Source: Phycisphaerales bacterium (GTDB lineage Bacteria; Planctomycetota; Phycisphaerae; Phycisphaerales; UBA1924). Taken from it: DNA of 58,239 bases. The stretch covers positions 1 through 58,239 of the forward strand of contig JBLHKT010000027.1 in assembly GCA_047620485.1 (NCBI GenBank). Reading direction: 5' to 3'. Under the pieces are notes generated by a model that did not search any database, was not told the origin of the DNA, and saw nothing but the letters and a program-made list of their open reading frames with translations. This document shows positions 975 to 16,789 of the stretch, piece after piece. Positions within the stretch are counted from its first letter, which is position 1; every line of letters begins with the position of its first letter. Position numbers and translations under genes: made by a program.

Positions 975-1014
975 GGTAAACAAACAGGCCCGCGTCCTGA
1001 TGGACACGGGCCTG
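975..1014 (-). terminator. Rho-independent terminator on the minus strand (stem caggcccgtgtcc/ggacgcgggcctg, loop atca, followed by TTTGTTTAC) downstream of the 1059-1475 gene
   Basis: 13-bp GC-rich imperfect inverted repeat followed by a T-rich run on the minus strand. The same hairpin follows tRNA-Asn at 37382-37421. Confidence 0.6.
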
Positions 1015-1058: not shown

Positions 1059-1475
1059 TCAGTCTTCAACTTCAGCTGTGCGGATATCTACAAACCCTGA
1101 CGGCAGGGTGGCGTACCACGTCGGCTCGGTAGAGATCGAGGTGACCGGGTAGATGCGGCCGCTCTGGTTGATCACGTCCATAATCGAGAGCTCGACGCAG
1201 ACCCGGTTGGGCTCGTCCCATTCGGCTGATTTGGTTTCGATGAAGGAGAGCCCGGGGCCGACGTGAGAGGCGGCCATGTTGAAACCATCGCCGTAGATGT
1301 CGATCACGGACTCTGTGGGCTCAGGGTTTGCGGAGATTCTGATGACGCCTGAGCCCTCAACCTTCGTGAGAAACTCTGGGAGAGTCTGGCGGAACAGAGG
1401 GGTGTTGAGGGAGAGACCGTGCTCTTCGAGCAGGGACTGGATTTCTTCGAGGCTCATGTGCTGAGGGTCTGTCAT
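1059..1475 (-). CDS. Hypothetical protein (138 aa), last gene of the long minus-strand array
   Basis: ORF with plausible ATG (MTDPQHMSLEEIQ...) and a terminator hairpin about 45 nt downstream. No recognisable domain. Confidence 0.5.
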   Translation of the reverse strand: MTDPQHMSLEEIQSLLEEHGLSLNTPLFRQTLPEFLTKVEGSGVIRISANPEPTESVIDIYGDGFNMAASHVGPGLSFIETKSAEWDEPNRVCVELSIMDVINQSGRIYPVTSISTEPTWYATLPSGFVDIRTAEVED

Positions 1476-1520
1476 GAGTGCTCCTTGTCGTGTGGCGTGC
1501 TGGGGGCGGCTTGAACGGGT

Positions 1521-2834
1521 TTAGAAATACAGCCCGATGTTGACGTTGAACCTCGTGCCCCACTTGTCATCGGCACCTTCGGCGAGCCCGTCGGTCCAGT
1601 CGCCGCCGAGCCAGGGGTGGTTCTTACCCACAGCCAGATCGATGTAGATGTAGAACGGGTTCGCGGAGATCATGCACCCCAGCACGTTCTGGACGGTGTC
1701 GTTGTACCCGGACTCGGCTTTGAGCATGAGGCTGGAGTCGTTGTAGAAGGTGAGCGACTGGATGCCGTGGTTGTCGATGGGGAGGGTGTAAGCGAGCCCG
1801 GCGGTGAGGATGGATGCCTCGGAGGCGACGTGGTACCAGGCGTCGTAGGCACCCATGGTTACGAAACTGCCGTCGGGGCTCGAGTCGAGTGATGGGTCGT
1901 TCTCCAGGTCGTACTTGTAGTGGATCGCCTGGAGCATGAGGTTCCACCGGCCGTAGGTGCCGTTGAGGTGGGCGGCGACGGCCCACTGGTTGCCGTCTCG
2001 GCCGGTGTTTTTGTTGGGCACCAGCCCGTACTGGAGTGAGAGCCCGATCTCGGTGGTGTTGGATTCGGAGTGGTCGAAGGTGTAGGCGAGCTTGGCGTTG
2101 CCTTGGTGTTTTTCCTCGTTGCCGTCGTTCTCTTCCAGGACCAGGTCGTAGGAGTAGCGTGCGCTGTCGTTGGAATCGCCGGTGTAGTCCCCCCCGTCGT
2201 TGGCGAAGTAGGCGAGCTGGAATTCCCATGGCCCGGAGTCGTGGATGAGCTTGACGCCGAGGTCGTAGTCGTCCTCGAGCCCGACGTAGTAGGGGAGCTG
2301 GAAGAACCAGGAGTGCGAGGCGTAGGTCTGGATGCCGAAGGGGACCTGGGTGAGCCCGGCGCGGACCTGGCTCTCGTCGTCGATCTTCCACCCCAACCAG
2401 GCGTACTTGAGCATGTGGTAGTCGTGGTTGTCGGTGAACCGTTCGTTGTAGTACCGGTATTCGAGCGAGCCGATGATGTGCTCGGTGTCTAGATCGAGAT
2501 TGACGCGCACAGTGTCGAGTGCGAGCTCGCCGGAGTCTTGGTAGTGCGAGCCGTAGTCTCGTGTGGAATAGTTGTATCGGAGGGCGCCGCCGACTCTGAG
2601 CGGGCCGAGGAAGAAGCCCTTCCAGCCCTCGTCGATTTCGAGGTCTGCTGGTTCGATCTCGGCATCGGCGTCCGGGGTCTCGGAGAAGAGAGGATCGATC
2701 GTGGTGGGCGATTCGGATGTCTGCGCCTGAGCGGTCAGAGCAGCGAGCAGCATTGTGAGCCAGAACGTGGGCACCTGACAAGCAGGGCGGTTCACTGGTA
2801 GCGAAGGCGCGCGGTGTGAGGATATGGTCGTCAT
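1521..2834 (-). CDS. Putative outer-membrane beta-barrel protein/porin (signal peptide MLLAALTAQAQ, alternating amphipathic strands, C-terminal ...IGLYF)
   Basis: N-terminal signal peptide, aromatic-rich beta-strand pattern and terminal Phe typical of OMPs. Its start overlaps the stop of the upstream gene by 4 nt. Confidence 0.6.
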   Translation of the reverse strand: MTTISSHRAPSLPVNRPACQVPTFWLTMLLAALTAQAQTSESPTTIDPLFSETPDADAEIEPADLEIDEGWKGFFLGPLRVGGALRYNYSTRDYGSHYQDSGELALDTVRVNLDLDTEHIIGSLEYRYYNERFTDNHDYHMLKYAWLGWKIDDESQVRAGLTQVPFGIQTYASHSWFFQLPYYVGLEDDYDLGVKLIHDSGPWEFQLAYFANDGGDYTGDSNDSARYSYDLVLEENDGNEEKHQGNAKLAYTFDHSESNTTEIGLSLQYGLVPNKNTGRDGNQWAVAAHLNGTYGRWNLMLQAIHYKYDLENDPSLDSSPDGSFVTMGAYDAWYHVASEASILTAGLAYTLPIDNHGIQSLTFYNDSSLMLKAESGYNDTVQNVLGCMISANPFYIYIDLAVGKNHPWLGGDWTDGLAEGADDKWGTRFNVNIGLYF

Positions 2835-5800
2835 TCGCCGATCTCCTTGGTGATTTTGATGAGATTACGATCCGCTCGGCGCTCATACTCGATGGTGTCA
2901 ACAAGGCGTCGGACGATCTCGATGCCGTCACCCCCGATGGAGCGTTCCTCGATGGGGAGGTCGATCCGTGGCGCGGCCTGTTCGAGCGGGTTGAACTCAA
3001 GCCCGTCGTCGGAGATGGTGACGACGACCCGTTGTGTGTTGATCTCGACCTTGATGTCGATCTGGTGGATCTTGTCGTCCTTATACCCGTGGGAGATAAC
3101 GTTGCTGAGCAGTTCGTCGAATACGATGCAGAAGCTTCGGCGGACTTTTTCGGTCAGGCTGTGTGGGGTGACGAACTTCTCGAAGAACTCGTTGACCCGG
3201 GTGATCTCGTCTTTGCGGTTCAGGATCGAGATCTCGAACCGTCGCTGCACCGAACTCTCGCTTGCGCCTCGGTACAGCAGGGTGAGAATGGTGATGTCGT
3301 CGGCCTGCTCGGCGCCGTTCTCGAAAGTACGGATCGCGTCGATGGTCTTGTCGAGAGCCTGCTTGTCCGAATCTGGTGCCTCGGTTTCGAGGAGCTTGGC
3401 GAGGCGATCCTCGGTGAACAGCTCCTTGGCCGGGTTCATCGCCTCGGTGACACCGTCGGTGTAGGTCACCAGCACGTCGCCGGGTTTGAGGGCGGTGCTT
3501 GACGACCCGTACTCCAGATCGGGCGAGGCACCGATGATGGGGCCGTGCCGATCCCGGAGGCGTTCGACCGAGCCATCGACGCGGCGGATCATGGGCGGGT
3601 TGTGCCCGGCGTTGGTGTAGGTCAGCTGCCCGGTGCGGGTGTTGAGCACCGCGAGGAACTCGGTGACAAACATGCAGGACTCGTTGCGCTCCGAGAGCCT
3701 GTTGTTGACCAGCGAGAGCACGCGGGAGGTCGAGACATCGTCCATGGCTCTCGAGCGGATGAGGGTCTGGGTGACGGCCATGAAGAGCGCAGAGGGGACG
3801 CCCTTGCCCGAGACATCGCCGATGGAGATACACAGGTGGTCGTCGTTGATGAAGAAGAAGTCGTAGAAGTCGCCGCCGACCTCGCGGGCGGGGATGATCG
3901 CAGCGCTGATGGAGAACTCGTCGTGGTCGGGGAAGGCGGGGAAGATGAGCGGGACCATGCTCATCTGGATGTCGCGTCCGACGTTGAGCTCCTGCTCCAT
4001 CCGCATGGAGTGCTGCTTGATGATGGCGTAGGCGTCGGTGAGCCGGTGGTTGGTGCCTTCGAGCTTCATGCGGCTCCACAGGAACAGCCCGGTCAGCCCG
4101 GTGATGAGCACGACGGCGAGCCCGGTTCCGACGACGGCCTGACGGGTGAAGGCGGCCCGTAGCTCGTAGGCCTCGGCAACATCGATCTCGGTGGTAATGC
4201 CCAGCCCGATGCGGTCGTCCCAGACCCAGGTGCCGATGACGGGCACGCCGCGGTAGTCGTTGTACCCGTCAAGATTGGACGCCGAGTTGCCGCCGGTGGC
4301 CTGGTCGGCCATGTGCGTGAGAGAGAGTTGCTCGGGCGGGAGGGAAGTGGTGTGCCCGAGGGTGAGGTTGCCGCCGGGGTCTCGCAGGGCGACGTTGAGG
4401 ATGCTGCGTTGGTCGGGTTCGATGATGCCGATCTGCTCGAGCTGATCGTCGAACCGGCTCTCGGAGACCATCTGCCCGAGCCGGTTGAAGGCGTAGGACT
4501 CGCCGGAATCGCCCATGCGGCCGCGCTGGAGGATCGCGGTGAAGGGGCCTTCGGTGTCGGCAGCAAGGATTAGCCCGCCGATCAAGGTGCCTGTCTCGTT
4601 ATACACGGGCGCGGCGACCAGCAGCAGTTGATGCAAGGTGTGCGTGACTGTGGCTTGGGGGTCCAGCGTGGGTACGCGGACCGAGGTCGGGCGGTTGTCG
4701 GCGATGACCTGGTTGAGCATATCGAGGCAGAGCGCCCGGTCAGTCTCGGTGAGCGTGGAGAGGTCTTCACCGGCAAGCAGGAGCTGCCCGTCGGGTGCGA
4801 TTACGACAAACGTGTCAAATGCGAGCGCGTCGGAGGTCTCGGTGAGCGCCCGGCGGAGGGCTGTTGACTGGGCTTCAAGCTCCGCGGCGTCGGCATCTCC
4901 CGACAGGGACTCAACCGCTAAGGGCACCGCGGGGCGCTGCGTCAGGCTCTGGGCATCGTACTCTCGGGCCCGGATCCAGTCGAAGGCGGCCTGGCTTGTG
5001 GTGCGCAGGACCGTGTTCTGCGCGTTGCCGACATCGCTGGTGGCTCGCTTGAACGTCGCGGACCAGCTCATCCGCCCGGCGAGGATGACCACGACGATCG
5101 CGGAAGCCCCGGTGACCACGATCGGCCATGAGTGGAGGAGATTGGCCTTGTGGAAGTCACGCTCGGATGTTTTACGACGGACGGCCAGAACGAGGGCGAG
5201 GACGACCACGCCTATGACAGATCCCACGATGGTGAGCGTCGGGTCACGAGTGAGCAGGGAGTCGCCAGGCGGCTCGAGGGCGATCCATCGGCGGTAGATG
5301 TCTTGGCGCTCCGACGCGGGGATGGAGTCCAGAGCTCGCCGGAGCATGGCGTGGAGCTCGGGCCAATCGTTGCGGGACGCGATGCACAGGTTCCACTCCA
5401 TGCCGGAGGTCCCGGCGACGCGGAGATTTGTCATCCCGTTCTTCTCGATATAGAAGCTCGCGGCGCCGATGTTGGCGATCACCGCGTCGGCGACGCCGAA
5501 CGAGACCAGCTCGAGCCCCTCCTCAATGTTGGGCACTTCGACCAGTTGCAGGTTGGGGTGGTTGTCGCGGACGTACTCAGCCGAGGCGTAGCCCTTCATG
5601 ACGACGACGTTGAGCCCGGCGAGGTCGGCGATGCTCAGCGTGCCCTCGGTCTCTCGCCGAACGATGATGACGATCGGGAGGTCGATGTACGGCTTGGTGA
5701 ACAGCATGAACTCGCGGCGCTCGGGCGTGTTCTGGGCCTCGAGCCAGACGTCGGCCTCGCGGGCCTTGGTCGCGGTCACGACGCCCTGCCAAGAGTCGTA

Positions 5801-6154
5801 TCGGGCGATCTCGAACTCGATGCCGAGCTTCTGTTCGATGATGCCAGCGTACTCGGCCATCACGCCGCGGTAGATCCCCTCGTCGTCGAAGTACTCCATC
5901 GGGGGGAAGTTGGGTGCTGGCGCGACCCGAATACCCGGGTGTGCGTCGAGCCAGGCCCGCTCTTCGGTTGTGATCACGAATTCCTCTTGAGCCAGCGCGT
6001 GAGGGCCGGCCGCGAGAAACAACAGGACTGAGACGGTCCAAAGCACCACCGAAACCACGGCGAGGCGGGGACGATCGCGAGTCTCAAGGGGTGTTGTATC
6101 TTGCTGAGACATGCGGCGGCTGCCTTTCATTCTCGACCCGATTTGAGGTCGCAC
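2831..6154 (-). CDS. 1107-aa multidomain membrane sensor: periplasmic solute-binding domain (SBP_bac_3-like), several TM helices, extracytoplasmic sensor region, PP2C/SpoIIE-type Ser phosphatase domain and C-terminal RsbW-like GHKL Ser-kinase (HATPase_c_2) domain
   Basis: PP2C motifs (REVGGDFYDFF..., DVSGKGVPSALFM..., TYTDGVTEA) and a C-terminal anti-sigma-factor-like ATPase region (ELLSNVISHG...GGDGIEIVRRL). N-terminal PBPb-like region follows a signal/TM segment. Confidence 0.75.
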   Translation of the reverse strand: MRPQIGSRMKGSRRMSQQDTTPLETRDRPRLAVVSVVLWTVSVLLFLAAGPHALAQEEFVITTEERAWLDAHPGIRVAPAPNFPPMEYFDDEGIYRGVMAEYAGIIEQKLGIEFEIARYDSWQGVVTATKAREADVWLEAQNTPERREFMLFTKPYIDLPIVIIVRRETEGTLSIADLAGLNVVVMKGYASAEYVRDNHPNLQLVEVPNIEEGLELVSFGVADAVIANIGAASFYIEKNGMTNLRVAGTSGMEWNLCIASRNDWPELHAMLRRALDSIPASERQDIYRRWIALEPPGDSLLTRDPTLTIVGSVIGVVVLALVLAVRRKTSERDFHKANLLHSWPIVVTGASAIVVVILAGRMSWSATFKRATSDVGNAQNTVLRTTSQAAFDWIRAREYDAQSLTQRPAVPLAVESLSGDADAAELEAQSTALRRALTETSDALAFDTFVVIAPDGQLLLAGEDLSTLTETDRALCLDMLNQVIADNRPTSVRVPTLDPQATVTHTLHQLLLVAAPVYNETGTLIGGLILAADTEGPFTAILQRGRMGDSGESYAFNRLGQMVSESRFDDQLEQIGIIEPDQRSILNVALRDPGGNLTLGHTTSLPPEQLSLTHMADQATGGNSASNLDGYNDYRGVPVIGTWVWDDRIGLGITTEIDVAEAYELRAAFTRQAVVGTGLAVVLITGLTGLFLWSRMKLEGTNHRLTDAYAIIKQHSMRMEQELNVGRDIQMSMVPLIFPAFPDHDEFSISAAIIPAREVGGDFYDFFFINDDHLCISIGDVSGKGVPSALFMAVTQTLIRSRAMDDVSTSRVLSLVNNRLSERNESCMFVTEFLAVLNTRTGQLTYTNAGHNPPMIRRVDGSVERLRDRHGPIIGASPDLEYGSSSTALKPGDVLVTYTDGVTEAMNPAKELFTEDRLAKLLETEAPDSDKQALDKTIDAIRTFENGAEQADDITILTLLYRGASESSVQRRFEISILNRKDEITRVNEFFEKFVTPHSLTEKVRRSFCIVFDELLSNVISHGYKDDKIHQIDIKVEINTQRVVVTISDDGLEFNPLEQAAPRIDLPIEERSIGGDGIEIVRRLVDTIEYERRADRNLIKITKEIGE

Positions 6155-6178
6155 TGGAAACCCTCGGCGGGCGAAGAT

Positions 6179-7096
6179 TCACCCACTCACACAATGGTTT
6201 GCGATCTCGGCGACCTGTGCGATGAGGGCGTGATTAATTCCCGCGATGAGCAGCCCGGAGTGGTGCTGCGCGTCGATGGGACGGCCTGTCCCGTCAACGA
6301 CCTCGCCCCCGGCGTTGCGGATCACCTGCACCGCAGCGACGAAGTCGAACGGGTCGGCCGGGCGACGCTCCCACAGGTTGACGTAGATGAAGTTGCCCTT
6401 CGCTGCGTCTGCCAGCGCCAAGGACGGTGAGCCACTCTCCATGCGAACCAGGCGGACCTGGTCGAGAGTCCAGGCGTCGATCAGGCTCGCGACGAGAGGC
6501 CCCGACCCACGCGAAGAGTGCACGAGCACGAGCGGCTGGTCGGTGGGGGTCTGATCGAGAGGCAGGTCAACACCGATGTCCTGCTCGCCGAACATGTCGA
6601 GGTGCAGCAGGCGGGATTTCCGGGTTCCCATGGTGTAGGAGATCTCGCCGGTCGCGGGGTTCGCGATGATCCCGAGGAACGGGCTGCCGTTACGGAAGAA
6701 CGCGAGGACCACAGCGGTGGTGCTCATCCGGTTGATCAGGGCCCAGGTGCCGTCGAGCGGATCGACCGCGACCGCGATGCCCTGCTCGGGGAGAAACCCT
6801 CCCATCTCCTCGCCGACCAGTTCCGCGTCGGGGCAGAACTCGGTGAGCCGCTCACGGATCATCTGCTCGATCTGTTCTTCTTGCGCGGTCACCGGCGTCG
6901 CGTCTTGTTTGAATGAGGTGGAATCCTGCAGCGGCGTCATGCGGAGCCTGCGGATGACGCGGCAGGCCTCGAGGGTAGTGTTCAAGGCGAAGTCGAGCCA
7001 TTCGTTGAGTGCGTGGTCCGGTGCAGGTCTCGGCTTGTCTCGATCTCCGCTCCTGAAGGCGCCAATAGCTGATTTCTCGGTCGGGGTGAGTTCCAT
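6179..7096 (-). CDS. Inositol monophosphatase-family phosphatase (IMPase/CysQ/SuhB-like, about 305 aa)
   Basis: AVDPLDGTWALI metal-binding motif plus family-typical EEMGG and WERRPADPFD segments. Start placed at MELTPTE. Confidence 0.7.
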   Translation of the reverse strand: MELTPTEKSAIGAFRSGDRDKPRPAPDHALNEWLDFALNTTLEACRVIRRLRMTPLQDSTSFKQDATPVTAQEEQIEQMIRERLTEFCPDAELVGEEMGGFLPEQGIAVAVDPLDGTWALINRMSTTAVVLAFFRNGSPFLGIIANPATGEISYTMGTRKSRLLHLDMFGEQDIGVDLPLDQTPTDQPLVLVHSSRGSGPLVASLIDAWTLDQVRLVRMESGSPSLALADAAKGNFIYVNLWERRPADPFDFVAAVQVIRNAGGEVVDGTGRPIDAQHHSGLLIAGINHALIAQVAEIANHCVSG

Positions 7097-7116
7097 GTGC
7101 GGTTCGTCCTCTCGGT

Positions 7117-9708
7117 TCAGGTGACGGCGGGTTGATTGCTCGTCACGGGGGTTGTTGTTTCCATGGCGCTGATAGCGGCCTTGACACACCGCGCCTCGGC
7201 GGCGGCCATCCGCGACAGCGTTTTCTCATCTGCTCGGGCCCATTGGATTTCCTCGAACTCGCCGCCGGGTGTGAACTGCCTGGGTGACTGCTCGAACGCG
7301 ACGGAGATGCCGAAGGCCTGGATCTTGACCCAGGCGTGGTCGGTCTGGCGGGGGTCGTAGAAGTAGCCCTGGGAGACGGTCGGGATCGCGTCGCACTCGA
7401 TCTCCCACCCGGTTTCGGCGTGGAGCACCCGCTTGAGGGCCTGCTCGCCGGTTTCGGTGGGGTGCATAAATCCCTTGGGCACCCACAGCATCGAGCCGTC
7501 GGGCTTGAGTCCCACAAGAACATCGATCGCGTCGTCCGAGTCATGCTTGCGAAGCACCACACCCGCGGCGGACTGGTTGGGCCCCCAACGCCCCAGCAGC
7601 CCACGCCCCGCAATGCCGGTCCGCCCTCGTGGGTTGAGCAGGCGTCCGGCATCGTCCCGCTTGGCCCGCCGCCCCGTGGCAACAACGGTCGTGTGGTCAT
7701 GGTCCTCGCCGTCGGCCCACGCGGAATCCCCGGTGGTTGCTGAGGGCGACAGCACGCTCTCGTGCACGAAGTACGGTGGTGTGTATTCCGGGCACGGCAC
7801 GGACCAGGGCGCGTAGTCGATCGAGACGCGGCACCGTGCCGGGTACTCGGGCGGACGCTCGCCGCGAATCTGCAGGTGAAAGTCGTCGGCCACGAGGTTG
7901 AACGCCAGCGATTCCACCGAGTACAACGCGTGCATGAGCTGGGGCAGTTCGCACTCGCCTCGATCTCGGGCAGCATCAAAGCTCAGCGTGTGGGCGGCGA
8001 ACTTGAGCAGGGCCACGCGGTACACCAGCCAGTCGTCGTGCTCCTTGATCTCGAAGCAGATCTCCCGGATCCGGCGCACGCCATCGAGGATCTTGCGGAA
8101 GCGAAGGTCCCACTTCACGAACCGCAGGTCCGGCGGCAGCAGCTCGGGCTCCGGCACGACGCGAGAGCCGAGCAGGAACTCCTCGAATCGCCGGAGCCGC
8201 TCGAGATCGTCGAGCCCGAACTGCTTGCTCATCACGAACTTCAGGTCGTTCTCGAGCTTGGCGAAGTCCACCTCGATGGGCGTCTCGCCGGAGTGGGTCC
8301 AGTCGATAAACCAGACGTTGTCGGAGTTGTCGCAGATGATGTTCTGGAGGTTTAGGTCGCCGTGGGACAGGCAGACCTCGCTCTCGATCGCGTCGATGTT
8401 CGAGGTGATGAGTTGCAACATCGAGACGACCGTGCTGTGATCGACCGCTCCGGCTGGCCCGATGCCTCGGTCACACGCCTGCTTCGCGATCTCCGACGCG
8501 TTCTCTTCGAGCCACGTGAGCTGCTGCTCGCCGTCGAGCCCGAGAACCCGGTACGGCGCGACCAGAGCGGTTCGGCTCGTGTTGCGGTGCAGCTTCTGAG
8601 AGATCAGCACCAGCGCACGCCCGAGCCTACCCATGAATCTTTGGAAGCTCTCGTCGTCCTCAGCGTTCTCGAAGGTCTCCTGCAGGGTCTCGGGTCGCCC
8701 CTCCATCGCAGCGAACTCCATCGCGACCCCCACCGAGTCGCCGATCGAAACCGGGTGCGAGAACGCGGGGACGTTTTTGCCCAAGAGGTCTTTCACGAGG
8801 TGGTAGCCGTTAATCTCGCGGCGCATCTGCGTGAACTCGTCGATCTTGAGCACCACCGGCTCGATCTGCGCGTGGCCCTTCCATCCGTCAGCGAGGAAGA
8901 GCAGGCTGCCGCTGAACCCACCCTGGAGCGGCTTGAGCTCGACGCGTGACCAGTTCATGCACAGGCGTTCGATGATCTGGAGGCGGTCATCGCTGATCTG
9001 TGAAACCGATTCGGGCGGCCCGATCTCACAGGGCGAGCTGGCGATCTGCTCGAAATCGGTGGGATCAAGCCCGGCGTATTCGGCGGTCTCTTGCAGATCC
9101 AGCAGGACTTCGATTTCGCAGGCCGGGAGGTTGTGGCGAAGCGCGGCGAAATGAGCCTCGATGGATGAGCTCCCGGTGAGATGTGATGAGACCGCGACTC
9201 GCTTTGCCCCGAGTACGTTTCGCAGGAAGGTGGCGAGGGTCAACACCCGATCTTCGGTGTGGCACCCCACGACCAGGAAGCGGGTGTCATTGTCCAGATT
9301 CAGCTTTGCCGGGTCGATCCCTGCGGCGGTCGTGATCGCGCCCTTGAGCTGGCTCCACAGAGATCGCTCTTCATCTGGGCCCACGATCTCAGCGGTGCTC
9401 AGGTAGGGCTTGAGGACCTCGACCACGTCCAGGGCTTTGAGCTCGCTCGCAGAGGGTGAGGCGGACAGGGAATCCCCCGTGGTGCTGCCCGTCCAGGTGA
9501 CGGTGATGCAAGAGATATCCTCGCCACGGTCTGCCGCCAGGGCGGCCCGTTTGAGAAACGTAGGCAGCGGGCCCTCGCCGTAGGACTTGCCCCGCCCCAT
9601 GAGTCGCTCGATCTCGCGGGCCCCGATGCTCTTCTTGTGCTCAAGGTGTGCGACATCGGCGCTGAGGAACTTGTTGTCCAATCCGATGCCGATGACGATG
9701 GTCTTCAT
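7117..9708 (-). CDS. 864-aa tri-domain protein: N-terminal isochorismatase/nicotinamidase-fold domain (catalytic Cys apparently replaced), central APH/choline-kinase-fold phosphotransferase, C-terminal NUDT9-like ADP-ribose pyrophosphatase-type Nudix domain with a degenerate Nudix box
   Basis: Kinase motifs: GGFSGSLLF (Gly loop), VVLKID (Lys), LSHGDLNLQNII (HGDxxxxN), FIDWTHSG. NUDT9 signature: GRTGIAGRGLLGRWGPNQSAAG. Nudix box reads GFMHPTETGEQALKRVLHAETGW (REUxEE becomes RVLHAE). N-terminus: TIVIGIGLDNKF...FLVVGCHTEDRVLTLATFL...GAKRVAVSS resembles the PncA/isochorismatase fold. Start at MKTIVIG, preceded by a GGGAG ribosome-binding site. Confidence 0.65.
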   Translation of the reverse strand: MKTIVIGIGLDNKFLSADVAHLEHKKSIGAREIERLMGRGKSYGEGPLPTFLKRAALAADRGEDISCITVTWTGSTTGDSLSASPSASELKALDVVEVLKPYLSTAEIVGPDEERSLWSQLKGAITTAAGIDPAKLNLDNDTRFLVVGCHTEDRVLTLATFLRNVLGAKRVAVSSHLTGSSSIEAHFAALRHNLPACEIEVLLDLQETAEYAGLDPTDFEQIASSPCEIGPPESVSQISDDRLQIIERLCMNWSRVELKPLQGGFSGSLLFLADGWKGHAQIEPVVLKIDEFTQMRREINGYHLVKDLLGKNVPAFSHPVSIGDSVGVAMEFAAMEGRPETLQETFENAEDDESFQRFMGRLGRALVLISQKLHRNTSRTALVAPYRVLGLDGEQQLTWLEENASEIAKQACDRGIGPAGAVDHSTVVSMLQLITSNIDAIESEVCLSHGDLNLQNIICDNSDNVWFIDWTHSGETPIEVDFAKLENDLKFVMSKQFGLDDLERLRRFEEFLLGSRVVPEPELLPPDLRFVKWDLRFRKILDGVRRIREICFEIKEHDDWLVYRVALLKFAAHTLSFDAARDRGECELPQLMHALYSVESLAFNLVADDFHLQIRGERPPEYPARCRVSIDYAPWSVPCPEYTPPYFVHESVLSPSATTGDSAWADGEDHDHTTVVATGRRAKRDDAGRLLNPRGRTGIAGRGLLGRWGPNQSAAGVVLRKHDSDDAIDVLVGLKPDGSMLWVPKGFMHPTETGEQALKRVLHAETGWEIECDAIPTVSQGYFYDPRQTDHAWVKIQAFGISVAFEQSPRQFTPGGEFEEIQWARADEKTLSRMAAAEARCVKAAISAMETTTPVTSNQPAVT

Positions 9709-9739
9709 GGGTACTCCCGTGGAATCCGCGGCACACGCC

Positions 9740-10072
9740 TCAAAAACCAGCGAGCGCCACTTGCTCGCTCTCAAACACCTTCAGGAGCGTGTCGAAGCCC
9801 GAGATCTCAAAGATGTCGCTCACGGACTCGTTGAGCCCGCACAACCGGAGCGACCCGCCCCGGTCCCCGAGCTTTTTGGCCGTCACGAGCAGCACTCGCA
9901 GCCCGGCGCTGGAGATGAAGTCGAGCGCGGTGAAGTTGATGAGGACCTTGTCGGCACCCTGTTCCACCACGTCGCCGAGCGTGCTCTCGGCCTGTGCGCT
10001 GGTGTTGGTGTCGAGTGAGCCGTCGAAGACGATTACCTTGACGTCGTTGCTGTCCTGGATGTCGATGTTCAT
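9740..10072 (-). CDS. STAS-domain anti-sigma-factor antagonist (SpoIIAA/RsbV-like, 110 aa)
   Basis: Typical STAS sequence with the conserved phospho-Ser region (...NFTALDFISSAGLRVLL...). Start at MNIDIQD. Confidence 0.8.
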   Translation of the reverse strand: MNIDIQDSNDVKVIVFDGSLDTNTSAQAESTLGDVVEQGADKVLINFTALDFISSAGLRVLLVTAKKLGDRGGSLRLCGLNESVSDIFEISGFDTLLKVFESEQVALAGF

Positions 10073-10127
10073 CCGATTCTCCTGCGGCGTGTGGTGTGGG
10101 CGGGCTCTCGGTGAGTCGTGCTGAATT

Positions 10128-11357
10128 TCACGATGGGCTCCCATGAAACTTGATGGCGATCACGGTGATGTCGTCGCTCTGCGGCGTGCCGAACTCGTGC
10201 TGAGTGACCGCGTCGGAGATCCGGCGGATGACCCTCTCGGGGGTGGGGTTCTCGTCGGCGTTGATTAGCCCCTCGAGGCGGGGCTCGCGGAACATCTCGC
10301 CCGTCGAGTCGGTGGCCTCGGTCACTCCGTCGGTGTAGACCACAAGCATCTCGCCGCGGGTGAGGGTTGTGGAGCTCTCGGAGTACTCGGCGTCCTCGAC
10401 CACGCCCAAGGGCGGGCCGTCGCGGTCGGTGAGCATCTCGGCGTGCTTCCCGGGCGGCCGCCGGTACGGCTTGTTGTGCCCCGCGTTGGTCATGACGACC
10501 TCGCCGGTGTTCAGGTCGAGGATGGCGATGAACAGCGTGATGAACATGCATGAGTCGTTGTTGATAGCCAGCTCGGCGTTGACCCGGGAGGCCAACGCCC
10601 CAGTCGATTCGGCCCGCATCGCGTTGGCCTTGATCAGTGTCTTGGCGGCGGCCATGAACAGCCCCGAGGCGGCACCCTTGTCCGAGACGTCGCCCACGAG
10701 GAAGCAGAGACGGTCGTCGTCCACGAAGAAGAAGTCGAAGAAATCACCGCCAACCTCGAGCGCGGGCTTGAGCATCCCCGCGATGGTGCACTCGGTGCGG
10801 TTGGGTGTGAGACGGCGTGGCAGCATGTTCATCTGAACCTGCCGGGCGACCCTGAGCTCACGCTCCATGCGGTCCTTCTGCGACTTGATGACGTCGTACG
10901 CCTTTTGCAGCTCCGCGGACCGCTGCTCGAGCGCCGCGTTGGCCTTCTCGAGGTCCTTCTTGTGCCGGTCGGCGAGCTTCGAGAACGAGTTGAGCAGGTG
11001 GTCCTGCTCCTTCTGCTTGGTGATCTCCACCGACTCGGCGAGCACCAGTTGTCGCCCGCCACGCTCTATGTGGCGGAGAGTGGTCAGGATCGAGACGGGC
11101 CGGGCGCCCAATCGGATCTCGGCCTCGACCGGGAACGGGCGGCCCTTGTCGAGCCGCTTGCTGGCACGCTCCCGGTTCAATTCGGGCAACCGATCGGCGA
11201 GATCGTTGGACTCGGTTGAGGCTGCGAACCAGCTCTCGAAGGCCCGATTGGTGTATTCCACCCGCCAGGTCTGGGCGTCGGCTAGCGCGATCCCCACGGC
11301 CAGGGAGTCCGCGGAGTCTTCGATCCCAATGCGTTGTCCGTCTCGCCCGCCCATCAC
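10128..11357 (-). CDS. Sensor-domain (PAS-like) PP2C/SpoIIE-family Ser phosphatase (RsbU/RsbP-like, 409 aa)
   Basis: PP2C motifs (LEVGGDFFDFFFVDDDRLCFLVGDVSDKGAASGLFMAA...VYTDGVTEA...SDDITVIAIKF). Start codon overlaps the stop of the upstream globin gene. Confidence 0.8.
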   Translation of the reverse strand: MMGGRDGQRIGIEDSADSLAVGIALADAQTWRVEYTNRAFESWFAASTESNDLADRLPELNRERASKRLDKGRPFPVEAEIRLGARPVSILTTLRHIERGGRQLVLAESVEITKQKEQDHLLNSFSKLADRHKKDLEKANAALEQRSAELQKAYDVIKSQKDRMERELRVARQVQMNMLPRRLTPNRTECTIAGMLKPALEVGGDFFDFFFVDDDRLCFLVGDVSDKGAASGLFMAAAKTLIKANAMRAESTGALASRVNAELAINNDSCMFITLFIAILDLNTGEVVMTNAGHNKPYRRPPGKHAEMLTDRDGPPLGVVEDAEYSESSTTLTRGEMLVVYTDGVTEATDSTGEMFREPRLEGLINADENPTPERVIRRISDAVTQHEFGTPQSDDITVIAIKFHGSPS

Positions 11358-11716
11358 CCGGACCCGACGATGCTGGCCCGGTAGCCCTGCAGTTGCTCTG
11401 AAACGTTATCGATGACACTCTCATCAACGTCGTGGTCTTCGAGGGTCTCGCCGATCAGCTCGACGATCAGATCGAAGTGCAGGTCCTTGATGCTCATCCC
11501 GGAATGCATTTTGTGGAGTTGCTCGTGCGTGTACGACACGGGCCCACCGAGGATGGTGGCCCAGAACTTGGTCTGGTGATCGATCAGCGACGCCATGTCG
11601 GTGTGCTGAAAAAACGGCGAGAGCTGCTCTTCGCTGAGCACCTTGTCGTAGAAATCTGTGACGAGCTTTCGCACCGTCGCAAACCCGCCCAGCTTGTCGT
11701 ACAGAGACTGTTCCAT
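11354..11716 (-). CDS. Truncated hemoglobin (group I trHb, 120 aa)
   Basis: MEQSLYDKLGGFATVRKLVTDFYDKVLSEEQLSPFF...WATILGGP is the 2/2 hemoglobin signature. Start chosen at the internal ATG of a longer ORF whose N-terminal part is Arg-rich noise. Confidence 0.75.
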   Translation of the reverse strand: MEQSLYDKLGGFATVRKLVTDFYDKVLSEEQLSPFFQHTDMASLIDHQTKFWATILGGPVSYTHEQLHKMHSGMSIKDLHFDLIVELIGETLEDHDVDESVIDNVSEQLQGYRASIVGSG

Positions 11717-11745
11717 CGTTCGTCCTTCGGTGTTCGTGCCGCGGA

Positions 11746-13032
11746 TCAGTCGAGTTGCTTGGGCACGGGCGGGGCATGATTGCCCTTGTCGGTGAGTTTG
11801 GAGAAGTCCACGCCGGTGGCGTTGCTCATCTGCTCCATCATCGAGACCACGCTGCTCGTGAGGTTTTTGACGTACGCGGGGAGCCCGTCGCCGCTCCCGG
11901 AGTCCACGATGGTGAGCTTGTCGATCCTGAGATTGTCCGCGACGACGCGTGACATCTTGTCGATCAGCTCGGGCATGAGGTGGATGAGAAACAGGTTTTC
12001 GGCCTCGCCGCCGTTCCACTGCTTCTGGAGCGCCTCGATCGCCTGGGCCTTGGCTTTGCCCTCCTCAAGGGTGCGGCTGGCCTTGCCCTCGGACTCGAGC
12101 AGCATCGCATCTCGCTTAGCGCGGGCCGGCACGACGGTGTCCGCGTTATGGAGTTGAACCGCAAGCTGAGCCCGCTTGGTCTGCAGCTCGATCTCCTCGC
12201 CCGCCCGGGTGATCTTGCCCGCAACACTCGCCCGCTCCACAGCACGGTTTGTCTCGGCCTCGAGATCGGCCCGCTCGACGGCCAGCGCGTTCTCGTGCGT
12301 GATGATCGTCCGTTCGGCTCCGATCTCGGCTTCGCGACCGATCCGATGCTGATCCGCAGCCACGGTGATCGACTCGGCCTTGGCGTGGGCCTCGGCGATG
12401 CTCGCGTCCCGCTGAACTACAGCGTTCTTCTTTCGCCCGATCGCCTCAAGATACCCCTGTTCGTCGGTCACCTCCTGCACCTGCAGGAAATCGAGCACGA
12501 TCCCCAGGTTCTTGAGATCAGCCCGAGCGTGCTCGGCGGCGGCTTTAGCGAATTCCAAGCGATTCGAGTTCGCATCCTCGGGACTCATCGTCGCGACCAC
12601 GCCACGCAGCGCTCCCTCGATCGCCTGCTTGGCGGTCTTCACCACCGCGTCTCCGCCCTTGCCGATGAACCGCTCGATCGCGGCGTCCATGCCGTCCTCG
12701 CTATTGCTCGCGATCTTGACGGTTGCCTTGGCCTCGATGGTGAGTGGGATCATGCCGCCGGACATCGCCTTGTGCAGGATCAGTTCTACAGGCAGCGAGT
12801 TGAGCGGCAGCCTCGCAACGGTCTCGAGCATCGGACGCTTGAACCCGCGCCCGCCTCGCAGCACCCGGTACCCGACGGTGCTCCCGTCGGCGGCCTTGCG
12901 CTTTCGCCCCGCGATCACGACCAGCTCGTTTGGTGGGCACAGGACGATGTTGCTCTTGAAGAAGACGAGCGTCAGCATGATCGCGAGAACGCCCAGGCCG
13001 ATTGCGAGGCCGATGATCTGTGGGGTATCCAT
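11746..13032 (-). CDS. Flotillin/SPFH (band-7) domain membrane protein (428 aa)
   Basis: N-terminal TM helix, SPFH domain, and a long coiled-coil Ala/Glu/Arg-rich region characteristic of bacterial flotillins (FloT/YqiK-like). Confidence 0.75.
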   Translation of the reverse strand: MDTPQIIGLAIGLGVLAIMLTLVFFKSNIVLCPPNELVVIAGRKRKAADGSTVGYRVLRGGRGFKRPMLETVARLPLNSLPVELILHKAMSGGMIPLTIEAKATVKIASNSEDGMDAAIERFIGKGGDAVVKTAKQAIEGALRGVVATMSPEDANSNRLEFAKAAAEHARADLKNLGIVLDFLQVQEVTDEQGYLEAIGRKKNAVVQRDASIAEAHAKAESITVAADQHRIGREAEIGAERTIITHENALAVERADLEAETNRAVERASVAGKITRAGEEIELQTKRAQLAVQLHNADTVVPARAKRDAMLLESEGKASRTLEEGKAKAQAIEALQKQWNGGEAENLFLIHLMPELIDKMSRVVADNLRIDKLTIVDSGSGDGLPAYVKNLTSSVVSMMEQMSNATGVDFSKLTDKGNHAPPVPKQLD

Positions 13033-14523: not shown

Positions 14524-14856
14524 TTACAGCGCCCGCGGTCCGCGAACACCGGTCCAAATGGTGACGATGTCGTCGAGCGGCTGGACCATGATCCGCCCCC
14601 ACCCGCCGGTCTCGTGAGCCCCTCGGCTAATCGCGTCGATCGCAGTCTCGACCTGTGCGTCGTTAACCGCGAGCTCGATGCGGACCCTTGAGAACAGCGA
14701 GACCTCCCGCTGTACGCCGCGGTACATCTGCTGCTCGGACTTGGGCGCGGTGCCCATGACCGTCGAGGCGGTGATGTGCCTGATCTGAGAGTCAAACAGG
14801 GCCTGCTTGACCGACGGGAGCTGTTCTGGGCGGATGACCGCAACGATGAGTTTCAT
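14524..14856 (-). CDS. glnK: PII-family nitrogen regulatory protein (GlnB/GlnK-like, 110 aa)
   Basis: MKLIVAVIRPEQLPSVKQAL...GKIGDG-like core. Position between amtB and glnA is the classic arrangement. Confidence 0.8.
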   Translation of the reverse strand: MKLIVAVIRPEQLPSVKQALFDSQIRHITASTVMGTAPKSEQQMYRGVQREVSLFSRVRIELAVNDAQVETAIDAISRGAHETGGWGRIMVQPLDDIVTIWTGVRGPRAL

Positions 14857-16618: not shown

Positions 16619-16707
16619 GGTTTCGGCTCGTCCAACTGATCTGAATCCGGCGTGTCCACGAGACCACCGGGCGAGTCTGTTTGTAGTGGAGACGACCCGC
16701 TGCGGCT

Positions 16708-16752: not shown

Positions 16753-16789
16753 TAGGGAGCGAACGGTCCAGATATAGATGTGGACAGAC

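What the first reader, a model, noticed from the sequence alone, without database searches (positions are those of the whole stretch)
1059..13032. Roughly 12-kb co-directional gene array combining flotillin, globin, partner-switching components, nucleotide-metabolising enzymes, a giant sensor fusion and an OMP
Nine minus-strand genes are separated by -4 to +49 nt: flotillin, trHb, PP2C, STAS, tri-domain protein, IMPase, SBP-PP2C-RsbW fusion, OMP, hypothetical. The array ends at a terminator hairpin (975-1014). It contains a full partner-switching toolkit (two PP2C phosphatases, STAS, an RsbW-type kinase domain) but no sigma factor. This suggests the output is not sigma release but control of the co-encoded enzymes or membrane functions (flotillin, OMP). 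The array follows directly on amtB-glnK-glnA, hinting at coupling to nitrogen status.
Basis: inference. Interest (0 to 1): 0.6.

Follow-up and report, generated by a model that had tools for sequence, protein, structure and literature searches.

The report
Sigma-less partner switch tied to ammonium genes
The nine genes are real and belong to a larger gene cluster, conserved across at least ten bacterial phyla, that joins a phosphorylation-based switch without a sigma factor to ammonium uptake and assimilation genes and to three uncharacterised proteins related to NAD/ADP-ribose enzymes.

Summary
Nine minus-strand genes lie at 1059-13032 with gaps of -4 to +55 nt and end at a strong terminator (1014-985). 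The co-directional run continues upstream through glnA, glnK, amtB and a REC gene to 16618, giving 13 genes. This is not a chance array. The 863-aa tri-domain protein has relatives (37-58% identical) in 65 species-level genomes from at least 10 phyla. Within 10 kb of them lie the IMPase (38 of 43 well-flanked loci), partner-switching genes (35 of 43), amtB/glnK/glnA (25 of 43) and flotillin (19 of 43). Fusion proteins support the links: Amt-PAS-PP2C-RsbW, IMPase-RsbW and IMPase-'hyp' in both orders. No sigma factor lies in the cluster in any locus; the only sigma-like ORF is a large one 2.4 kb downstream of tri in L039. The tri-domain protein combines an isochorismatase fold (Cys replaced by Arg), a TCAD9 kinase with intact motifs, and a NUDT9-homology domain with a degenerate Nudix box like that of human TRPM2. 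The 'hypothetical' protein has a HopF/AvrPphF-type ADP-ribosyltransferase fold. My best reading is a sigma-less partner switch, fed by nitrogen and gas sensors, that controls an NAD/ADP-ribose-type enzyme module acting on ammonium assimilation. The neighbourhood is solid. The mechanism is inferred.

The parts
16619..16789 (-). 171-nt non-coding gap upstream of the REC gene. It is the candidate promoter/operator region of the long unit. It holds CAACTGTCA twice and the palindrome ACTGTCA-GTTT-TGACAGT.
   Evidence: 2 matches against 0.2 expected, and 0 of 100 shuffles reached 2.
16202..16618 (-). Stand-alone receiver (REC) protein. It overlaps the amtB start by 4 nt.
   Evidence: Pfam Response_reg 2e-23; junction. 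Stand-alone REC genes also sit beside the REC-PP2C-RsbW genes in L033 and L050.
14871..16205 (-). amtB ammonium transporter.
   Evidence: Pfam Ammonium_transp 2e-132. Linked to tri in 16 of 43 well-flanked loci.
14524..14856 (-). Divergent P-II (GlnK-like) protein. Its T-loop is shortened and lacks Tyr51, and it has IWTG in place of RIRTG.
   Evidence: Pfam P-II 2e-16. NCBIfam score of 56 bits against a cut-off of 181. The same features recur in cluster-linked P-II proteins from loci of several phyla.
13082..14509 (-). glnA, type I glutamine synthetase.
   Evidence: Pfam Gln-synt_C 3e-118 and Gln-synt_N. Linked to tri in 20 of 43 loci.
11746..13032 (-). Flotillin (SPFH/Band_7).
   Evidence: Pfam Band_7 2.6e-21 and NCBIfam FloT-like 2e-42, below cut-off. 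It follows glnA in nearly all of the 19 loci that have it.
11354..11716 (-). Truncated haemoglobin. Its stop codon overlaps the PP2C start.
   Evidence: Pfam Bac_globin 1e-21. The trHb-PP2C pair recurs after the IMPase in L015, L023 and L024.
10128..11357 (-). PAS-PP2C phosphatase (RsbU/SpoIIE type).
   Evidence: Pfam SpoIIE 2.4e-45 and a weak PAS_8 hit.
9740..10072 (-). STAS anti-sigma-antagonist-type protein with a conserved phosphorylatable Ser (ISSAGL).
   Evidence: Pfam STAS 7e-21; NCBIfam ant_ant_sig 81 bits against a cut-off of 53; alignment with SpoIIAA and 40 cluster orthologues.
7117..9708 (-). Tri-domain protein of 863 aa. Isochorismatase-fold domain at about 9034-9708, TCAD9/APH-type kinase at about 7909-8925, and NUDT9-homology domain at about 7120-7890.
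6179..7096 (-). IMPase-superfamily phosphatase, the constant partner of the tri-domain gene.
   Evidence: Pfam Inositol_P 1e-25. It is below every NCBIfam equivalog cut-off; the best matches are HisN and CysQ. It is present in 38 of 43 loci, always on the same strand as tri. It is fused to HATPase_c_2 in L065 and to 'hyp' in L043 and P0140.
2831..6130 (-). Membrane sensor fusion. SBP_bac_3 at 5282-5932, dCache_1 at 4439-5038, PP2C at 3278-3844 and RsbW-type HATPase_c_2 at 2846-3217.
   Evidence: Pfam. The SBP domain is closest to GlnH, at 2e-18 but below cut-off. Full-length orthologues lie in L001 and L059 (E 4e-283 and 4e-280).
1521..2834 (-). Outer-membrane porin, Porin_O_P-like. Its start overlaps the stop of the sensor fusion by 4 nt.
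   Evidence: Pfam Porin_O_P 1e-5, 25.4 bits against a cut-off of 20.9. It recurs next to the full-length sensor fusion in L001 and L059.
1059..1475 (-). 'Hypothetical' 138-aa protein, identified here as a HopF/AvrPphF-ORF2-like ADP-ribosyltransferase-fold protein.
975..1014 (-). Intrinsic terminator that closes the unit.
   Evidence: 13-bp stem, 10 G-C pairs, 4-nt loop, TTTGTTT tail.

Best explanation
The nine genes are the distal part of one 13-gene, roughly 15.6-kb co-directional unit: REC-amtB-glnK-glnA-flotillin-trHb-PAS/PP2C-STAS-tri-domain kinase-IMPase-sensor/PP2C/RsbW-porin-ART-like protein. This is the Phycisphaerales version of a gene supercluster conserved in at least 10 phyla.

I read it as a sigma-less partner-switching pathway that links nitrogen and gas sensing to post-translational control of ammonium assimilation. 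The steps below are inferred.

1. Sensor domains set the phosphorylation state of the STAS protein through opposing PP2C and RsbW-type kinase activities. In the window the sensors are a GlnH-like periplasmic binding domain plus dCache, fed by the adjacent porin, and a haem globin with the PAS-PP2C. Elsewhere they are a stressosome, a REC/Hpt phosphorelay or an Amt domain.
2. STAS then exchanges partners with the RsbW-type domain. This frees or activates not a sigma factor but the conserved enzyme module: the tri-domain kinase, the IMPase-family phosphatase and the HopF-like ADP-ribosyltransferase-fold protein.
3. In that module the kinase has intact catalytic motifs and is probably active. Its nicotinamidase-fold and NUDT9-homology domains have lost catalytic residues and act as sensors of NAD-derived ligands such as ADP-ribose. 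The IMPase opposes the kinase, and the ART-like protein consumes NAD+.
4. The likely targets are the co-encoded AmtB / P-II / glutamine synthetase set. In other lineages they also include the cyclic-nucleotide-binding-domain (CNBD) K+ channel, the RCK protein or the Na/Pi transporter that occupy the same cluster.
For: Shown computationally:
- Operon-like anatomy and terminator.
- Relatives of the tri-domain protein in 65 genomes of at least 10 phyla. Within 10 kb of them lie the IMPase (38 of 43 well-flanked loci), partner-switch genes (35 of 43), the CNBD K+ channel (26 of 43), amtB/glnK/glnA (25 of 43), flotillin (19 of 43), a stressosome-like set (15-16 of 43) and 'hyp' (12 of 43). The closest Planctomycetota relatives keep glnA-flotillin...STAS-x-tri-IMPase.
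- Fusion proteins: Amt-PAS-PP2C-RsbW in L016 and L017, IMPase-RsbW in L065, IMPase-'hyp' in L043 and 'hyp'-IMPase in P0140, and an Isochorismatase-TCAD9-DSP phosphatase paralogue in the IMPase position in L011. Amt-PP2C-RsbW fusions are common, and three examined examples have a STAS gene beside them.
- The only sigma-like ORF within 10 kb in the 65 loci is one large ORF in L039, 2.4 kb downstream of tri; none lies in the window.
- The STAS phospho-serine is conserved.
- Kinase motifs are invariant, while the Nudix box (RVLxxE) and the isochorismatase Cys (replaced by Arg) are degenerate across the family. The NUDT9-H domain is most similar to human TRPM2, whose equivalent Nudix box binds ADPR but does not hydrolyse it (PMC4974056).
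- 'hyp' has a HopF-type ART fold.
- Cluster-linked P-II proteins form a distinct variant.
- No anti-phage defence models match.
Against: - There is no transcript, interaction or enzyme data. Every mechanistic step is inferred from domain content and gene neighbourhood.
- 8 of 43 well-flanked loci show no partner-switch gene and 18 of 43 show no amtB/glnK/glnA within 10 kb. Part of this is because the cluster is longer than the retrievable flank.
- Amt-PP2C-RsbW plus STAS pairs also occur without tri/IMPase, so tri/IMPase cannot be the only output of such switches.
- The window copy of the ART-like protein has Thr at the position next to the one aligned with the essential Asp of AvrPphF, where most homologues have Glu. 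It may be inactive.
- No ADP-ribosylhydrolase or macro-domain 'eraser' was seen among the conserved ORF clusters.
- The window lacks the K+ channel, RCK protein and stressosome genes found in most other loci.
- The kinase substrate is unknown. A purely metabolic role for kinase plus IMPase is not excluded.
- All 65 loci are metagenome-assembled genomes.
Confidence: 0.5

Rival explanations
1. This is a metabolic or ion-homeostasis cluster rather than a signalling output. On this view the tri-domain kinase and the IMPase are enzymes of a small-molecule pathway. Candidates are a phosphorylated sugar, inositol or nucleotide, a compatible solute, or NAD(P)/ADP-ribose salvage. The pathway would be used together with K+ channels and glutamine synthetase in K+/glutamate-type osmotic or cation homeostasis, and the partner switch would only tune expression or activity.
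For: APH/choline-kinase-type kinases and IMPase-family phosphatases usually act on small molecules (family knowledge). A CNBD K+ channel, a TM+TrkA_N protein or a Na/Pi cotransporter sits in the cluster in many loci. Stressosome-like sets are present. In L011 the IMPase position is taken by a DSP-type phosphatase of a kind also found fused to NAD kinase (Pfam PTP-NADK).
Against: Two of the three domains of the tri-domain protein lack catalytic residues across the family, which fits sensing better than catalysis. The IMPase is fused to an RsbW-type regulatory domain and to the ART-like protein. No biosynthetic genes recur in the cluster. The window itself has no channel.
Confidence: 0.2
2. This is a classical partner switch whose sigma factor, or other transcription target, is encoded elsewhere in the genome. 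The neighbouring enzymes and nitrogen genes would then be regulon members or bystanders.
For: The STAS, RsbW-type kinase and PP2C set is exactly that of RsbV/RsbW/RsbU. Only 58 kb of this genome is available, so a sigma factor encoded in trans cannot be excluded. In Pseudomonas, the HsbR-HsbA switch acts on factors that are not encoded next to it (PMC6482189, PMC5085249).
Against: Among 65 loci from at least 10 phyla, the only sigma-like ORF within 10 kb is one large ORF in L039 that is not part of the cluster. By contrast the enzyme genes are nearly always there. The IMPase-RsbW fusion places the RsbW-type domain on an enzyme.
Confidence: 0.15
3. This is a biological-conflict or toxin-type system: an ART toxin, a TCAD9 kinase and a NUDIX domain that happen to sit beside nitrogen genes, possibly on a mobile element.
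For: TCAD9 was defined from conflict systems, as its Pfam name 'ternary complex associated domain' indicates. The 'hyp' family is related to HopF effectors and to toxin domains of RHS proteins. An integrase and a ParB-methylase gene lie 4-7 kb upstream. High identity across phyla suggests lateral spread.
Against: No PADLOC model matches any of the nine proteins. No immunity gene, secretion signal or chaperone is evident. Linkage to amtB-glnK-glnA is conserved and includes Amt fusions. The same ordered cluster lies on large contigs and on complete MAG chromosomes, for example L036, L011 and L019.
Confidence: 0.07
4. This is a fortuitous juxtaposition of unrelated transcription units that merely share a strand.
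For: There are no transcript data. The promoter scan is uninformative for this phylum. A weak terminator-like hairpin lies at the end of the STAS gene, 9769-9749.
Against: Gaps are only -4 to 55 nt, with three 4-nt overlaps. The same gene set recurs in 65 genomes in varying order. Several fusion proteins join members of different 'units'.
Confidence: 0.05

Closest known systems
HptB-HsbR-HsbA pathway of Pseudomonas (also SypE-SypA of Vibrio fischeri and BtrU/V/W of Bordetella): partner switches that do not simply release a neighbouring sigma factor
   Same: PP2C phosphatase and RsbW-type kinase lie in one polypeptide and act on a small STAS protein. Orthologous loci L034, L050 and L051 even have the REC-PP2C-RsbW architecture. 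In L034 and L050 a giant hybrid kinase with an Hpt domain lies upstream. Outputs other than sigma release are documented for HsbA, which acts on the diguanylate cyclase HsbD (PMC5085249).
   Different: In the window the input is a fused SBP_bac_3-dCache membrane sensor, not REC. The conserved neighbours are a NUDT9-H kinase, an IMPase, an ART-like protein and AmtB/P-II/GS. They are not flagellar, biofilm or c-di-GMP genes.
RsbRST stressosome modules with alternative outputs
   Same: Most other loci carry dCache-HAMP-STAS and Protoglobin-STAS RsbR-like genes, an RsbS-like gene and an RsbT-SpoIIE gene upstream of the PP2C-RsbW and STAS genes. The haem-globin input parallels the trHb found in the window.
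   Different: The window has none of these genes. Its globin is a free truncated haemoglobin beside a PAS-PP2C. The output module is new.
DraT/DraG-GlnK-AmtB control of nitrogenase by reversible ADP-ribosylation
   Same: An ADP-ribosyltransferase-fold protein and an ADP-ribose-binding-type domain are genetically linked to AmtB and a P-II protein. In the DraT/DraG system, DraG is sequestered to the membrane and a P-II protein assists DraT (PMC8120803).
   Different: The ART here belongs to the HopF/AvrPphF family, not DraT. No DraG-like or macro-domain hydrolase and no nitrogenase genes were seen. The target is unknown.
TRPM2 NUDT9-homology domain (a ligand sensor derived from the ADP-ribose pyrophosphatase NUDT9)
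   Same: This is the best solved-structure match (4.7e-11). The same Nudix-box positions are degenerate: RVLHAE here, RILRQE in human TRPM2. That box supports ADPR binding without hydrolysis (PMC4974056, PMC6461439). In 26 of 43 loci a cation channel gene lies within 10 kb of tri, usually directly upstream.
   Different: The domain is fused to a kinase, not to a channel. The neighbouring channel is a 6-TM K+ channel with a cyclic-nucleotide-binding domain. ADPR binding has not been tested.
Amt-domain 'transceptor' fusions (Amt fused to histidine kinases and other signalling domains)
   Same: L016 and L017 replace the sensor with Amt-PAS-PP2C-RsbW. Dozens of such fusions, and also Amt-PAS-STAS, exist in metagenomes alongside Amt-HK-REC forms.
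   Different: In the window AmtB is a separate, ordinary-length transporter. The linkage is by operon, not by fusion.

Membership tests
Partner-switching system (RsbU/RsbV/RsbW, SpoIIE/AA/AB type) | STAS antagonist with the conserved phosphorylatable serine | tested here: met
   ISSAGL aligns with DSSGL (Ser58) of SpoIIAA and is conserved in nearly all of the 40 cluster orthologues. NCBIfam ant_ant_sig scores above its cut-off.
Partner-switching system (RsbU/RsbV/RsbW, SpoIIE/AA/AB type) | RsbW/SpoIIAB-type GHKL kinase domain | tested here: met
   HATPase_c_2 at 2.3e-18 at the C-terminus of the sensor fusion. Weak matches to the SpoIIAB and RsbW equivalogs.
Partner-switching system (RsbU/RsbV/RsbW, SpoIIE/AA/AB type) | PP2C (SpoIIE/RsbU-type) phosphatase | tested here: met
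   Two SpoIIE domains, at 2.3e-51 and 2.4e-45.
Partner-switching system (RsbU/RsbV/RsbW, SpoIIE/AA/AB type) | Cognate sigma factor held by the kinase | tested here: not met
   No sigma-like ORF in the 58-kb window. In 65 related loci the only one is a large ORF in L039 that is not part of the cluster. A sigma factor encoded elsewhere cannot be tested with these tools.
HsbR-type regulator (REC-PP2C-RsbW) | PP2C and RsbW-type kinase fused in one protein | tested here: met
   SpoIIE at residues 771-959 and HATPase_c_2 at 980-1103 of the same ORF.
HsbR-type regulator (REC-PP2C-RsbW) | N-terminal receiver domain fed by an Hpt phosphorelay | tested here: not met
   The window protein has SBP_bac_3 and dCache instead. 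The feature is present in the orthologous loci L034, L050 and L051.
Stressosome (RsbR/RsbS/RsbT) | RsbR-, RsbS- and RsbT-like genes present | tested here: not met
   No window ORF matches the L036 RsbR, RsbS or RsbT-SpoIIE proteins at E <= 1e-3. They are present in 15-16 of 43 related loci.
HopF / AvrPphF-ORF2 ADP-ribosyltransferase family (PF09143) | ART fold of AvrPphF ORF2 | tested here: met
HopF / AvrPphF-ORF2 ADP-ribosyltransferase family (PF09143) | Sequence match to the family model above its threshold | tested here: not met
   The window protein has no Pfam hit even at E <= 1. The link is indirect. The family profile hits 1s21 at E 0.0033. It also hits proteins whose same region is PF09143 above the cut-off.
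HopF / AvrPphF-ORF2 ADP-ribosyltransferase family (PF09143) | Essential Arg and Asp of the putative active site. These are R72 and D174 of AvrPphF, with numbering from my own knowledge of the literature. | tested here: inconclusive
   The Arg aligns with the invariant R29. In the HMMER alignment the Asp aligns with V111. The adjacent position 112 is Glu in most homologues but Thr in the window protein.
HopF / AvrPphF-ORF2 ADP-ribosyltransferase family (PF09143) | NAD+-dependent ADP-ribosyl transfer | not testable with these tools
   Needs an enzyme assay.
NUDT9-type ADP-ribose pyrophosphatase | NUDT9 cap plus Nudix core | tested here: met
   PF25969 (NUDT9_N) and PF00293 are recorded for the family. 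PDB hits to NUDT9 and to TRPM2 NUDT9-H at about 1e-10.
NUDT9-type ADP-ribose pyrophosphatase | Catalytic Nudix box REx2EE | tested here: not met
   The box is RVLHAE in the window protein, and R[VI][LVM]xx[ED] in 21 of the 22 aligned family members. The same positions are degenerate in human TRPM2.
Isochorismatase / nicotinamidase cysteine hydrolases | Fold | tested here: met
Isochorismatase / nicotinamidase cysteine hydrolases | Catalytic Cys, with the Asp and Lys of the triad | tested here: not met
   The Cys position is Arg154 and is nearly invariant (HTExRV). The strand-1 Asp is variable and is Ile in the window protein. This rests on my alignment to the PncA motif from knowledge, not on a structure superposition.
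GlnK/GlnB P-II proteins | P-II fold and sequence family | tested here: met
   Pfam P-II 60.5 bits against a cut-off of 25.
GlnK/GlnB P-II proteins | Canonical GlnK equivalog features: score above cut-off and T-loop Tyr51 | tested here: not met
   56 bits against a cut-off of 181. Tyr51 is replaced, the T-loop is one residue shorter, and RIRTG is replaced by IWTG.
DraT/DraG ADP-ribosylation switch | DraT-type transferase, DraG-type hydrolase and a nitrogenase target | tested here: not met
   None of these was found among the array's Pfam annotations or among the conserved ORF clusters. The resemblance is functional only.

The most novel reading that the evidence does not exclude
The cluster may encode a previously unrecognised endogenous NAD+/ADP-ribose signalling pathway. 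Its 'writer' would be a HopF-like ADP-ribosyltransferase. Its 'reader-effector' would be a kinase gated by a catalytically dead NUDT9-homology domain and a dead nicotinamidase-fold domain. An IMPase-type phosphatase would oppose the kinase. All of this would be under sigma-less partner-switch control, and it would post-translationally regulate AmtB / P-II / glutamine synthetase and linked cation channels in at least 10 bacterial phyla. That would be a DraT/DraG-independent ADP-ribose control of nitrogen assimilation. It would also be a bacterial precedent for the ligand-sensor use of NUDT9-H seen in TRPM2.
Probability: 0.22. Interest if true: 0.9.

Novelty: new variant of a known kind. Interest (0 to 1): 0.72.

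Why it matters
Partner-switching modules without a sigma factor are common in genomes, but their outputs are mostly unknown. Here comparative evidence points to a specific, testable output: a kinase/phosphatase/ART-like enzyme module. It also points to a specific physiological field, ammonium uptake and assimilation. The cluster is found in many uncultured lineages, to judge by the MAG record titles. It includes a distinct P-II variant, a family of about 860-aa proteins annotated only as 'NUDIX' or 'phosphotransferase', and a 135-aa family without any annotation that turns out to be related to HopF-type ADP-ribosyltransferases. If the mechanism holds, it would add a new layer of nitrogen control. 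It would also show a bacterial use of a catalytically dead NUDT9 domain as a sensor.

Tried and rejected
- PADLOC scan of all nine proteins: no hit, so this is not a known defence system.
- NCBIfam: no equivalog for the tri-domain protein, 'hyp', the OMP or the globin. The IMPase is below all cut-offs.
- Literature searches for TCAD9, for combinations of partner-switching/STAS/amtB/flotillin, and for stressosome/ammonium transporter/K+ channel/NUDIX found no description of this neighbourhood.
- A sigma-54 promoter pattern search gave only weak, misplaced matches. The sigma-70 scan found fewer sites than expected by chance and is not informative for this phylum.
- A PDB sequence search with the kinase segment gave only marginal APH hits (E about 0.5), so there is no clue to the substrate. 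The IMPase matched generic IMPases only.
- I checked whether Amt-PP2C-RsbW fusions always sit in tri clusters. Three contexts do not, so that idea was dropped.
- Many 'conserved' ORF clusters in the all-against-all comparison were antisense or alternative-frame shadows of real genes in these G+C-rich loci and were ignored.
- One Pfam call failed because of an off-frame coordinate and was repeated.

Full report
**Origin of the window.** The window is the complete 58,239-bp contig of a Phycisphaerales metagenome-assembled genome. The tri-domain protein is 100% identical to a database entry whose longest contig has exactly this length.

**Observation.**
- Flotillin, 11746-13032.
- Truncated globin, 11354-11716.
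- PAS-PP2C, 10128-11357.
- STAS, 9740-10072.
- An 863-aa tri-domain protein, 7117-9708.
- IMPase, 6179-7096.
- A 1099-aa SBP_bac_3-dCache-PP2C-HATPase_c_2 fusion, 2831-6130.
- A Porin_O_P-like OMP, 1521-2834.
- A 138-aa protein without a Pfam match, 1059-1475.

The gaps are 29, -4, 55, 31, 20, 48, -4 and 45 nt. A strong intrinsic terminator lies at 1014-985.

The run does not begin at flotillin. glnA, glnK, amtB and a stand-alone receiver gene precede it, with gaps of 49, 14 and 14 nt and an overlap of 4 nt, up to 16618. Only then comes a 171-nt non-coding gap, followed by a NarL-type regulator and a propeller-type histidine kinase on the same strand. The anatomical unit is therefore 13 genes and about 15.6 kb.

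**Conservation.** The tri-domain protein has hundreds of full-length relatives of about 860 aa that are 48-59% identical. A pattern scan of one genome per species found 65 loci. All are MAGs. By record title they come from:
- Gemmatimonadota (28 loci)
- Gammaproteobacteria (10)
- Acidobacteriota (6)
- Desulfobacterota/Myxococcota (6)
- Planctomycetota (3)
- Acidimicrobiia (3)
- Alphaproteobacteria (2)
- Bacteroidota (2)
- Verrucomicrobiota (1)
- Armatimonadota (1)
- unclassified (3)

I translated all ORFs of these loci and searched them with the window proteins and with extra proteins taken from the loci. Among the 43 loci with at least 8 kb of flank:
- the IMPase is present in 38, always co-directional and usually immediately downstream of tri;
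- STAS and/or a PP2C-RsbW protein in 35;
- a 6-TM K+ channel with a cyclic-nucleotide-binding domain (CNBD) in 26, usually immediately upstream of tri;
- amtB/glnK/glnA in 25;
- flotillin in 19, nearly always right after glnA;
- a stressosome-like set in 15-16, made of dCache-HAMP-STAS, Protoglobin-STAS, an RsbS-like gene and an RsbT-SpoIIE gene;
- the 138-aa protein in 12;
- a TM+2xTrkA_N protein in 11.

The typical Gemmatimonadota order is (amtB-glnK-)glnA-flotillin-hyp-RsbR-RsbR-RsbS-RsbT/PP2C-PP2C/RsbW-STAS-K+ channel-tri-IMPase-RCK. The closest Planctomycetota relatives (57-58% identity) have glnA-flotillin-stressosome set-PP2C/RsbW-STAS-Na/Pi cotransporter-tri-IMPase.

The window is a rearranged version of this. 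It has no stressosome genes, channel or RCK protein. The trHb-PP2C pair recurs in L015, L023 and L024. The porin recurs next to the full-length SBP-dCache sensor fusion in L001 and L059. The amtB-glnK-glnA genes therefore belong to the conserved neighbourhood.

**Fusions that tie the parts together.**
- Acidimicrobiia loci L016 and L017 encode Ammonium_transp-PAS-SpoIIE-HATPase_c_2 in one 1013-aa protein inside the cluster.
- The Amt-PP2C-RsbW architecture accounts for more than 55 of the 120 best database hits to that protein. It occurs alongside Amt-PAS-STAS, Amt-HK-REC and Amt-cyclase forms.
- A Myxococcales locus (L065) fuses the IMPase to an RsbW-type HATPase_c_2 domain.
- The IMPase and the 138-aa protein are fused in both orders (L043 and P0140).
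- In Acidobacteriota locus L011 the IMPase position is taken by a paralogue with Isochorismatase-TCAD9-DSP/PTP phosphatase architecture. A phosphatase of a different fold thus fills the same position.
- L034 and L050 have a giant hybrid kinase with Hpt, followed by REC-PP2C-RsbW. This is the HsbR architecture.

**No sigma factor.** Searching the window and all 65 loci with an ECF sigma factor and with B. subtilis SigB found nothing in the window. The only hit in the loci is a large sigma-like ORF in L039, 2.4 kb downstream of tri. The STAS proteins of the cluster are close orthologues and keep the phosphorylatable serine.

**The tri-domain protein.**
- The central domain matches TCAD9 and APH. 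Its HGDLNxxN catalytic loop, its IDW metal-binding Asp and its VLK lysine are invariant, so the kinase is probably active.
- The C-terminal domain is a NUDT9-homology domain. The best solved relatives are human TRPM2 NUDT9-H (4.7e-11) and NUDT9 (8e-11). The Nudix box is RVLHAE in the window protein, and R[VI][LVM]xx[ED] in 21 of the 22 aligned family members. These are the same positions that are degenerate in human TRPM2 (RILRQE in the alignment). For TRPM2 this box was shown to allow ADPR binding without hydrolysis (PMC4974056; PMC6461439).

I therefore read the protein as a kinase flanked by two ligand-sensing domains derived from NAD-metabolism enzymes.

**The 'hypothetical' protein.** Its family is small, with 107 representatives among 1.84 billion proteins, and it carries no annotation.
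- Foldseek gives 1s21 as the only significant hit (E 1.9e-5).
- The family profile finds 1s21 as the only significant PDB sequence (E 0.0033).
- The profile's weaker database hits carry Pfam AvrPphF-ORF-2 domains at the matching position, some inside RHS-type giant proteins.
- The invariant Arg29 aligns with the Arg that I recall as essential in AvrPphF. The essential Asp aligns with V111. The adjacent position 112 is Glu in most homologues but Thr in the window protein. Activity of this particular copy is therefore uncertain.

**Other members.**
- The P-II protein is divergent, scoring 56 bits against an equivalog cut-off of 181. Cluster-linked P-II proteins from the loci of several phyla share a shortened T-loop without Tyr51 and an altered C-terminal motif. 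This suggests a dedicated variant.
- The SBP domain of the sensor fusion is most similar to the glutamine-binding protein GlnH, but far below the cut-off.
- The IMPase is a generic superfamily member, closest to HisN and CysQ models below their cut-offs.

**Interpretation.** The neighbourhood statistics, the fusions, the conserved and degenerate motifs and the folds are shown computationally. The following is inferred.
1. Variable sensors set the STAS phosphorylation state through PP2C and RsbW-type activities. The sensors are SBP/dCache with a porin, a globin with a PAS-PP2C, a stressosome, a REC phosphorelay, or Amt.
2. STAS and the RsbW-type domain then control the tri-domain kinase / IMPase / ART-like module instead of a sigma factor.
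3. That module uses NAD-derived ligands.
4. It acts on the AmtB / P-II / GS set and, in other lineages, on the linked channel or transporter.

The functional parallels are the HptB-HsbR-HsbA pathway (PMC5085249, PMC6482189), the DraT/DraG-GlnK-AmtB system (PMC8120803) and TRPM2.

**Caveats.** There are no transcript or biochemical data. The linkage is incomplete in some loci. Amt-PP2C-RsbW plus STAS pairs exist without tri/IMPase. No ADP-ribosylhydrolase 'eraser' gene was seen. A metabolic or K+/osmotic role for the kinase-IMPase pair remains possible.

**Novelty.** No PADLOC model, no NCBIfam equivalog and no paper in the searchable library describes this neighbourhood. Sigma-less partner switches are a known kind. 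The conserved output module and its tie to ammonium genes appear new. I rate it a new variant of a known kind, with a less likely but not excluded reading as a new ADP-ribose-based nitrogen control pathway.

Noticed in passing
window 16619-16789 (minus strand): The only sizeable non-coding gap of the co-directional run holds CAACTGTCA twice (16719-16727 and 16742-16750; 0.2 expected by chance). It also holds the perfect palindrome ACTGTCA-GTTT-TGACAGT. This is a candidate operator, perhaps for the adjacent NarL-type regulator.
   Followed up: partly
window 888-957: An 11-nt tandem repeat, CGGCCCCCACG x 6.5 at 98% match, lies immediately 3' of the terminator.
   Followed up: no
window 20665-24065: A tyrosine integrase (20665-21579) and a ParB_N-N6/N4 DNA methylase (22734-24065) lie on the same strand, just upstream of the histidine kinase gene. 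This may be the border of a mobile element.
   Followed up: no
window 9-617 (+): The product of this ORF ends in repeated DxNGDGxIDFGDIQxF motifs that look dockerin- or EF-hand-like. It has no Pfam match.
   Followed up: no
window 9749-9769 (minus strand): A weak terminator-like hairpin with a T-run lies inside the 3' end of the STAS gene, just before the tri-domain gene. It could attenuate read-through, but it could equally be a chance match, since 14 sites were found against 10.4 expected.
   Followed up: no
L066 8331-10004 and L067 8304-10004: The position between STAS and the tri-domain gene is occupied by a CNBD K+ channel in most phyla. In the closest Planctomycetota it is a Na_Pi_cotrans protein, and in the window it is empty. 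The window's OMP is of the phosphate-porin (Porin_O_P) family.
   Followed up: partly
L011 12489-14921: A second tri-domain paralogue with Isochorismatase-TCAD9-DSP/PTP phosphatase architecture lies directly downstream of the main one, in place of the IMPase.
   Followed up: partly
P0315, P0355 and P0311; loci L068-L070: Amt domains are fused not only to PP2C-RsbW but also to PAS-STAS and to a nucleotide cyclase. Amt-PP2C-RsbW genes outside the cluster have a STAS gene beside them but no tri or IMPase.
   Followed up: partly
P0206, P0215, P0235: Distant relatives of the 138-aa protein are internal or C-terminal AvrPphF-ORF-2 domains of giant proteins, one of them with RHS repeats. The small housekeeping-linked family may therefore derive from a toxin or effector domain.
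   Followed up: partly
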